Part shown: in pieces, positions 56,358-56,694 of the stretch | How the letters are laid out: each line of letters starts with the position of its first letter | Numbering within the stretch: position 1 is the stretch's first letter | Origin: Tolypothrix carrinoi HA7290-LM1 | Lineage (GTDB): Bacteria; Cyanobacteriota; Cyanobacteriia; Cyanobacteriales; Nostocaceae | Assembly (NCBI GenBank): GCA_019358935.1 | Contig: JAHHIK010000041.1 | Span: forward strand, 1-63,381 | DNA: 63,381 bases | Direction: 5' to 3' | Notes under the pieces: generated by a model | Databases searched by the model: none | Seen by the model: only the letters and a program-made list of their open reading frames with translations | What the model was told of the DNA's origin: nothing | Program-made: the position numbers and the translations under genes

Positions 56358-56625
56358 GTTCACCAACCTCGCCCTAAAAGGGACGAGGATTGACCGAACC
56401 AATTCGGACAACGTAAGCGGTGAATAGCCCAAATCGAGCCTAATCCTGGCACAAACTTCCGGATGCTTCACGCCACATCCTTCAAGTCTGGCGACCGAAC
56501 GGAGTGGCTCCCCAGTCCGGACTATCTTTAAGCTTGATTGGTCAAGCGTTGGGTAATGCCAAGCCATCTTGGATTAGGTGGGCGAGGGGACTAATTACGG
56601 GTTTGCTGGTTCCTGGGATTATATC
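56358..56625 (+). ncRNA. Putative omega-RNA/HEARO-like RNA
   Basis: Ordered motifs match, from recognition, the leader found upstream of cyanobacterial RRXRR/IscB ORFs; not verified by covariance model. Confidence 0.6.
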
Positions 56626-56694
56626 CATTTAAAAACCAGTATTTAAATGTAAAGCAAGTACTAAAGGACGGGGTTTCAAACCCAAGGAGTTTCG
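56358..56694 (+). mobile_element. ORF-less IscB/RRXRR-type IS200/IS605 derivative carrying a HEARO/omega-RNA-like scaffold
   Basis: Left hairpin CCTCGCCCT-AAA-AGGGACGAGG; GGTGAATAGCCC; ACTTCCGGATGCTTC...CCCAGTCCGGA; GCGTTGGG..GCCAAG..ATCTT; GGGCGAGGGGACT; GGGATTAT; right end AAAGGACGGGGTTTC..CCCA...TTTCG then ATGA. Confidence 0.7.

What the first reader, a model, noticed from the sequence alone, without database searches (positions are those of the whole stretch)
56358..56694. Orphan IscB-type omega-RNA cassette placed exactly before a start codon
Seen: a 337-bp element with a left hairpin, a HEARO/omega-RNA-like scaffold and a right end, but no ORF; at the GGGATTAT point where the nuclease ORF would begin, only ~40 nt of AT-rich filler remains. 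The right end abuts ATGA, which is also the start of ORF 56695. Removing the element gives GGGAAAG-TTGTAGC-ATG, a plausible RBS-start. Known: IscB omega-RNAs take their guide from the 5' flank, the TAM follows the right end, and ATGA is a reported IscB TAM. Inference: a non-autonomous guide-RNA element that could load an IscB/IsrB in trans and that rewires the downstream gene's leader. An ATGA target could bias such elements toward translation starts.
Basis: partly seen in the sequence, partly recalled or inferred. Interest (0 to 1): 0.75.

Follow-up and report, generated by a model that had tools for sequence, protein, structure and literature searches.

The report
Gene-less IsrB guide-RNA transposon
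This is a real 336-base jumping element that has no gene but keeps the folded guide RNA of the DNA-nicking enzyme IsrB; the element type is known, but its family in these cyanobacteria sits directly in front of start codons in about two thirds of the copies examined, even inside ATP-synthase operons.

Summary
Real, with corrections. The element is 56359-56694 (336 bp). The exact empty site, without duplication, occurs in 2 of 10 genus relatives and 2 DNA runs. It is an ORF-less IS200/IS605 (ISC1) element inserted at N|ATGA. Its RNA is IsrB-type, not IscB/HEARO: no Rfam hit, but both IsrB pseudoknots are intact and covary across 55 relatives. The 'filler' is a covarying terminal stem, seen in 96 ORF-less copies and in none of the 30 isrB leaders viewed. 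An intact-looking isrB lies on another contig. Family-wide, 52 of 81 independent sites abut a start codon (null 5% of all ATGA, 19% of non-coding ATGA), including aspS, atpA, ndhA, clpP. A null limited to transcribed leaders (59%) explains this, matching the known need for host transcription. PATEs, stand-alone omega-RNAs and the ATGA target are published; I found no paper on the start-codon bias. The scan saw ORF-less omega elements and one start-codon IsrB before, on other DNA. Trans loading and expression are untested.

The parts
56339..56358 (+). Host leader just outside the element; predicted 20-nt guide, identical to the sequence in front of ATGA at the empty allele
   Evidence: Position by analogy with DtIsrB (PMC9581776); empty site; its last 14 nt have no other exact match in G000 and no 1-mismatch match followed by NTG. 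Guide use is inferred
56359..56694 (+). Whole ORF-less IS200/IS605 (ISC1-type) element, 336 bp, termini TT...CG, no target duplication
56359..56424 (+). Stem S1 enclosing SL1 (56367-56388) and SL2 (56394-56407). On the minus strand SL1 is the TnpA right-end DNA hairpin, with guide CAAT (56389-56392) and cleavage tetramer TGAA (56359-56362)
   Evidence: end rule recalled from IS608 work
56399..56541 (+). Adaptor pseudoknot: SL2 loop 56399-56402 pairs with SL5 loop 56538-56541 (IsrB hallmark); 4 of 4 pairs intact here
   Evidence: PMC9581776
56438..56579 (+). S3 (56438-56445 with 56572-56579) enclosing SL4 (56458-56521), SL5 (56532-56547), SL6 (56549-56562)
56469..56509 (+). 41-nt dispersed repeat inserted in the SL4 loop (register ambiguous by one base); folds as its own hairpin
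   Evidence: 10 related copies by BLAST, 13 by pattern; absent from sister copies; related insert at the same loop in L170
56509..56590 (+). Nexus pseudoknot: 56509-56513 pairs with 56586-56590; 5 of 5 pairs retained despite the insert
56605..56640 (+).
56655..56694 (-). TnpA left end (minus strand): imperfect hairpin with guide GAAA (56674-56677) that predicts target TCAT = ATGA on plus
   Evidence: the same end variant occurs on the isrB element in L117
56684..56689 (+). AAGGAG Shine-Dalgarno-like site carried by the element end, 5 nt before the ATG
56695..57039 (+). Target ATGA (56695-56698) and downstream 114-aa ORF of unknown family; ATG is the first in-frame start after the upstream stop at the empty site
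57036..57572 (+). Second gene of the operon (weak clan AA aspartic protease match, E 0.025), broken here by a 168-bp insert and a nonsense codon; intact in G005 and G006

Best explanation
A gene-less IS200/IS605 element of the ISC1 (IsrB) lineage. SHOWN: it inserted scarlessly before ATGA, between this operon's leader and its start codon; it keeps both TnpA ends and every IsrB omega-RNA helix checked; it belongs to a widespread, recently mobile ORF-less family closed by its own terminal stem. INFERRED: a Y1 transposase (TnpA) from elsewhere moves it; the host promoter transcribes leader plus scaffold, so the leader becomes the guide; an IsrB made elsewhere (candidate C148) loads the RNA and nicks empty alleles at leader+ATGA, copying the element back. 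Because the target contains ATG, the RNA needs a host promoter, and coding insertions are purged, surviving copies pile up at start codons. The end leaves an open leader, here with AAGGAG, so the gene can still be translated. This particular copy may be weakened by the repeat in SL4.
For: Empty sites with no duplication. End guide predicts target: GAAA with ATGA 79 times, AAAA with ATAA 31 times, of 122 junctions. 94.4% of cells paired over 68 pairs, 47 pairs compensatory, 0 of 500 shuffles, slid controls 30-48%; pseudoknots 98.6% and 98.9% paired. Model R1, built without the window copy, scores it 253.6 bits and the C148 isrB RNA 170, with no full-length hit on the 4 HEARO loci. Copies 97-99% identical at different sites within 3 genomes. 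isrB match in 50 of 61 genomes with ORF-less copies versus 89 of 201 in the family sample. 52 of 81 sites at starts; 21 of 25 non-start intergenic copies face a same-strand gene, null 57%. Meers et al. state that the omega-RNA needs outside transcription and that PATE omega-RNAs act in trans.
Against: No expression, binding or nicking data for this copy. None of the 7 Y1 ORFs in G000 showed an identical end in the 260 nt viewed. 11 of 61 carrier genomes had no isrB match at E<=1e-40, including near-complete ones. ORF-less HEARO-type copies need outside transcription too, yet only 12 of 42 abut starts, no more than TnpB-type copies (8 of 21). Covariation could be inherited from isrB-bearing ancestors, since cores interleave on the tree; only the terminal stem's covariation (3 of 7 pairs) is private to ORF-less copies. 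The window core groups by similarity with a clade holding no isrB row in my sample, so C148 may not be cognate. SL4 contacts the guide-target duplex (PMC9581776), so the insert may inactivate this copy.
Confidence: 0.7

Rival explanations
1. Passive PATE: the element moves by TnpA alone and the RNA is an inherited relic that is never loaded. The start bias comes only from the ATGA target plus purging of coding insertions.
For: TnpB-type elements with the same end also reach 8 of 21 at starts; some carriers lack a detectable isrB; 18 of the ORF-less copies aligned carry repeat insertions in the scaffold; at ndhA the core has decayed to 42-48 bits.
Against: Both pseudoknots stay over 98% paired; the ORF-less-only stem covaries; the bias (52 of 81) exceeds that of other cargo on the same end (23 of 68, Fisher p 0.0003; same end type only 21 of 36, p 0.02); relatives of the scaffold appear at high contig depth in one RNA library (weak).
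Confidence: 0.17
2. Leader-adapted or domesticated element: besides homing, the RNA acts in cis on the host mRNA. IsrB binding or processing of the scaffold sets translation or stability of the downstream gene, and ends evolved ribosome sites to spare the host.
For: Copies inside the atp operon and between rbcX and rbcS, and before aspS, clpP, grpE. SD-like motif in 13 of 43 distinct ATGA-type ends and 0 of 23 ATAA/GTAA-type ends. One ndhA insertion kept in 4 genomes with an intact 3' module. IsrB is proposed to autoregulate through the SD hairpin (PMC9581776).
Against: SD motif is not enriched at start versus non-start sites (23 of 52 vs 14 of 29); ends are related, so counts are not independent; this site is polymorphic and its operon is decaying; invaded genes share no evident function.
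Confidence: 0.1
3. TnpA itself prefers start regions (single-stranded, transcribed DNA), so the bias arises at insertion, not by retention.
For: All cargo classes on this end lie above the 18.6% null (29 of 77, p 7e-5); recently duplicated ORF-less pairs are mostly at starts.
Against: Cargo classes sharing the end differ; the excess in other classes is not significant against a stricter 31% null.
Confidence: 0.03

Closest known systems
ISC1 / IS605B elements of cyanobacteria, e.g. ISC1-1_MA (Kapitonov et al. 2016, PMC4810608; passages read)
   Same: N|ATGA target, TT/GT...CG termini, no duplication, subterminal hairpins, end shared with TnpB elements, mobilised in trans
   Different: No ORF; terminal stem in its place. 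The main text has no occurrence of 'start codon', 'translation' or 'ribosome'
IsrB omega-RNA group B, subgroup B2 (CwIsrB, DsIsrB; Hirano et al. 2022, PMC9581776; passages read)
   Same: SL2-SL5 and SL4-linker pseudoknots, no SL3, 5' guide, NTG/NTGA motif at the target
   Different: Stand-alone; extended terminal stem; repeat in SL4. The paper cites stand-alone RNAs working with IscB; I saw no such statement for IsrB in the passages read
PATEs carrying omega-RNAs (Meers et al., 10.1101/2023.03.14.532601; passages read)
   Same: ORF-less IS200/IS605 derivative needing TnpA and nuclease in trans; dependence on outside transcription
   Different: IsrB-type scaffold; placement at the downstream gene's start rather than behind an upstream gene (here the upstream gene is divergent)
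HEARO / IscB omega-RNA (Rfam RF02033)
   Same: Shared ancestry; the C148 isrB RNA scores 44.8 bits, under the 83-bit cut-off
   Different: No hit for this copy; true IscB-type loci in the genome score 84-121 bits

Membership tests
PATE-type non-autonomous IS200/IS605 element | Precise insertion at a fixed tetramer, no target duplication | tested here: met
   80 of 81 family junctions ATGA (junctions were sought as ATGA/ATAA/GTGA near the end, and 7 records without a clear junction were dropped)
PATE-type non-autonomous IS200/IS605 element | Subterminal hairpins with guide tetramers matching the cleavage sites | tested here: met
   pairing rule recalled from IS608 work, its GAAA/ATGA versus AAAA/ATAA covariation counted
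PATE-type non-autonomous IS200/IS605 element | No protein-coding cargo | tested here: met
   only an 80-aa antisense frame that runs out of the element; no isrB match at C41
PATE-type non-autonomous IS200/IS605 element | Cognate TnpA available in trans | tested here: inconclusive
   7 Y1_Tnp ORFs in G000; none with an identical end in the flanks viewed
PATE-type non-autonomous IS200/IS605 element | Mobility | tested here: met
   presence/absence polymorphism; family copies 97-99% identical at different sites
IsrB omega-RNA (group B) | Core stems and stem-loops | tested here: met
IsrB omega-RNA (group B) | Adaptor pseudoknot SL2-SL5 | tested here: met
   4 of 4 pairs here; 98.6% paired, all 4 with compensatory change
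IsrB omega-RNA (group B) | Nexus pseudoknot from SL4 | tested here: met
   5 of 5 pairs; 98.9% paired; a 41-nt insert lies directly 5' of it
IsrB omega-RNA (group B) | HNH-less IsrB partner in the genome | tested here: met
   C148, 367 aa, no stop, best match 8DMB; a second, more distant one on C141; cognacy untested
IsrB omega-RNA (group B) | Transcribed with a 5' guide | tested here: inconclusive
   only contigs of relatives in RNA libraries
IsrB omega-RNA (group B) | Guides TAM-dependent nicking | not testable with these tools
   needs biochemistry
HEARO / IscB omega-RNA (RF02033) | Covariance-model match above gathering score | tested here: not met

The most novel reading that the evidence does not exclude
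The ORF-less IsrB-RNA family is a parasite specialised for gene leaders. It uses start codons as a landing motif, borrows the host promoter and 5' leader as its guide, hands back a ribosome site, and thereby puts host genes, including ATP synthase and aspS, under a mobile IsrB-binding RNA that can tune their translation in cis: a self-spreading riboregulator rather than only a homing cassette.
Probability: 0.15. Interest if true: 0.75.

Novelty: new variant of a known kind. Interest (0 to 1): 0.45.

Why it matters
The element class is known, so the single copy is modest. The family-level result is useful. It shows how an RNA that must be transcribed from outside finds promoters: its 4-base target is a start codon. 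It offers many natural guide/target pairs and empty alleles to test whether a nickase supports homing, which the papers I read show for IscB and TnpB; for IsrB they list only nicking. It also raises the question of how essential operons are read through a 300-nt pseudoknotted RNA.

Tried and rejected
Rfam: no gathering hit in the window; three chance-level hits at E<=10 over 56200-56850. IscB label rejected. Deletion straight from a parent that carries the terminal stem: all 20 GTDB matches to the 28-nt motif were ORF-less and none of 30 isrB leaders viewed had it (L133 holds both only as a tandem pair). Internal promoter for the downstream gene: none on plus; one minus-strand site at chance level. 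SD selected site by site: rejected. Degenerate transposon end: rejected, same variant on an isrB element. One origin of ORF-less cores: not supported, 13 label changes, at least 5 forced, though clustered versus shuffles (the one-clade test was not run). Search for an isrB element with the same left end: 4 matches in 151 genomes, all ORF-less. Second target for the guide in G000: none. Pfam named nothing for ORF 56695. RNA runs X8 and X20 are contigs; cover over the scaffold without flanks in X20 cannot show strand, ends or level, and the small-share runs were not used as habitat evidence. Altae-Tran 2021, Weinberg 2009 and Elhai 2008 were not held, so the insert could not be matched to a named repeat family.

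Full report
OBSERVATION. The window is contig C41 of genome G000; named relatives are Nostocales cyanobacteria. BLAST of 56200-56850 against G000 gave an ORF-less sister on C80 (76% over 344 columns), an ORF-bearing relative on C148, and 10 matches to a short inner segment. All three elements begin TTCA and end CG|ATGA. Two of 10 genus relatives hold both flanks joined as ...GTTGTAGCG|ATGAAAG; the other 8 did not match across both flanks. Contigs of both DNA runs laid skip exactly 336 bases. The element is therefore 56359-56694, with no duplication. Compared with its closest repeat-free relative it has a 41-nt insert at 56469-56509.

TRANSPOSON ANATOMY. On the minus strand it reads as an IS200/IS605 element: target TCAT, guide GAAA before a hairpin; at the other end guide CAAT and cleavage site TGAA. 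The pairing rule is recalled from IS608 work. I tested it on 129 ends of this type, 122 with a callable junction: GAAA went with ATGA 79 times, AAAA with ATAA 31 times, and 12 fell in six other combinations. Kapitonov et al. (PMC4810608, passages) report N|ATGA insertion with TT/GT...CG termini for cyanobacterial ISC1 and IS605B elements. G000 has 7 Y1 transposase ORFs, none with an identical end in the flanks viewed.

RNA. Rfam finds nothing here, while 4 other loci of G000 pass the HEARO cut-off. The C148 protein lacks HNH and best matches DtIsrB. The 'filler' motif gave 20 of 20 ORF-less matches in GTDB and matched 72 of 388 family genomes, some by the end alone and with only 2 candidates scored per genome. 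Across the loci fetched, 96 distinct records carry it; none of 30 isrB leaders viewed does. An alignment of 56 insert-free copies (55 distinct; the window copy not among them) supports 12 helices: 94.4% of cells paired, 47 of 68 pairs compensatory, 0 of 500 shuffles, slid controls 30-48%. I drew the structure by hand on one row using the DtIsrB description, which favours it over slid controls; the independent RNAalifold run found 38 of 52 pairs compensatory but folded the 3' end differently. The adaptor pseudoknot, which Hirano et al. call conserved in IsrB and degenerate in IscB RNAs (PMC9581776, passages), is 98.6% paired; the nexus pseudoknot 98.9%; the terminal stem 97.1% with 3 of 7 pairs compensatory. 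All named helices checked in the window copy pair fully. Model R1 scores it 253.6 bits, C80 251.1, the C148 isrB RNA 170, C141 50.9. A tree of 83 cores interleaves ORF-less and isrB rows (13 changes, at least 5 forced), which points to repeated swapping of the 3' module or of cores. The insert sits in the SL4 loop; a related repeat entered the same loop in L170.

START-CODON BIAS. I called 6,647 genes in G000 with my own crude dicodon caller. Of 61,275 ATGA sites, 3,140 are start-like: 5.1% of all, 18.6% of those outside coding sequence. From the 96 ORF-less records I dropped 8 as the same site and 7 with no clear junction; among ORF-less and isrB records 4 junctions were shifted and 4 placed by hand. 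52 of 81 are start-like (47 of 74 where the empty site could be rebuilt; 50 of 79 without G000); 37 have the N-terminus confirmed by a non-self homolog. isrB-bearing elements: 11 of 28 (2 of 30 dropped; Fisher p 0.027). I scanned 32 downstream ORFs, picked partly because they looked recognisable; 16 were named, including aspS, atpA, ATP synthase delta, leuC, typA, ndhA, clpP, grpE, miaB. Two copies lie inside the atp operon and one upstream of rbcS. Controls with the same end: TnpB-type 8 of 21, ORF-less HEARO-type 12 of 42 (classes assigned by motif; 3 checked by Rfam), isrB 7 of 9. These came mostly from 7 high-copy genomes, so sampling differs. Against my reading as something special: if only sense-strand non-coding ATGA within 60 nt of a same-strand gene is allowed, the null is 59% and 52 of 81 fits (p 0.43); at 100 nt it is 48% (p 0.004), at 200 nt 36%. 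Meers et al. (10.1101/2023.03.14.532601, passages) already show that omega-RNAs need outside transcription and that iscB elements follow the upstream gene's orientation. The bias is thus best read as that rule plus an ATG-containing target. The null comes from one genome, and kin are not independent.

RIBOSOME SITE. This copy carries AAGGAG 5 nt before the ATG (-7.8 versus -4.2 kcal/mol for the native leader), predicted mostly unpaired. SD-like motifs occur in 42 of 109 ends versus about 23% of native leaders, but not more often at start than non-start sites (23 of 52 versus 14 of 29). They occur in 13 of 43 distinct ATGA-type ends and 0 of 23 ATAA/GTAA-type ends: suggestive only, as ends are related. 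Locally there is no sign of benefit: the operon's second gene is broken in G000 and intact in G005 and G006.

PARTNER AND EXPRESSION. 50 of 61 carrier genomes have an isrB match versus 89 of 201 in the family sample; 11 have none with this query at E<=1e-40. One soil RNA library holds repeat-free relatives of the scaffold, and of the 3' module, at contig depths of hundreds to thousands, without these flanks. These are contigs of other organisms and do not prove transcription.

LITERATURE AND VERDICT. Eight full-text searches (listings seen) and term searches in six papers (PMC9581776, PMC4810608, the Meers preprint, PMC8987985, PMC13180657, PMC13565253, plus PMC9755519 as a seventh; passages only, no supplements) found no report of start-codon placement or of this terminal stem. 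Altae-Tran 2021 and Weinberg 2009 were not available; their texts and supplements could hold both. Earlier scan notes describe ORF-less omega elements as ordinary and one IsrB element at a phage start codon. Verdict: a real stand-alone IsrB-type omega-RNA PATE, a new variant of a known kind; it works like an ISC1 homing cassette, with trans activity inferred. Interest 0.45.

Noticed in passing
L257:1258-1488, L252:983-1211, L240:922-1189 and about 40 more loci: A parallel ORF-less HEARO (IscB-type) family shares the same transposon end and has its own conserved 3' module; 12 of 42 at start codons.
   Followed up: partly
L166, L167, L168, L178: One insertion at the ndhA start is shared by four genomes; the RNA core has diverged (42-48 bits) while the 3' module and end are nearly unchanged: an old, fixed leader.
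   Followed up: partly
L081/L089 versus L160 (sqdB start); L158 versus L130: The same gene start is occupied by different element types in different genera, suggesting repeated insertion or end swapping at one site.
   Followed up: no
L071/L133 (G329:C105): An ORF-less element lies in tandem directly before an isrB element with a nearly identical core, a possible intermediate for module swapping.
   Followed up: no
L044:1851-1925 (-): Element before a 25-codon frame that looks like the first frame of peptide release factor 2 (recalled; no family hit); counted as non-start.
   Followed up: no
L234-L237, L239, L244, L246, L250, L286: Other gene-less elements with this end, with an inward-facing -10-like box on the opposite strand and no Rfam hit in the two tested; probably TnpB-type derivatives.
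   Followed up: no
window 57192-57359: 168-bp repeat-like insert, plus a downstream nonsense codon, breaks the putative clan AA protease gene.
   Followed up: partly
G000:C55:48860-49320 (-): A tnpA-only element ending in the other common end type and ATGA; candidate helper for that end type, not for this one.
   Followed up: no
window 57680-58420: Low-complexity repeats interrupt what looks like the start of a Y1 transposase-like gene (MSRNFTQLYLH..., similar by eye to the C51 ORF); no Pfam hit.
   Followed up: no
L003:27-103: Group II intron domain match (51.9 bits) about 170 nt from an IS200/IS605 end hairpin identical to this element's.
   Followed up: no
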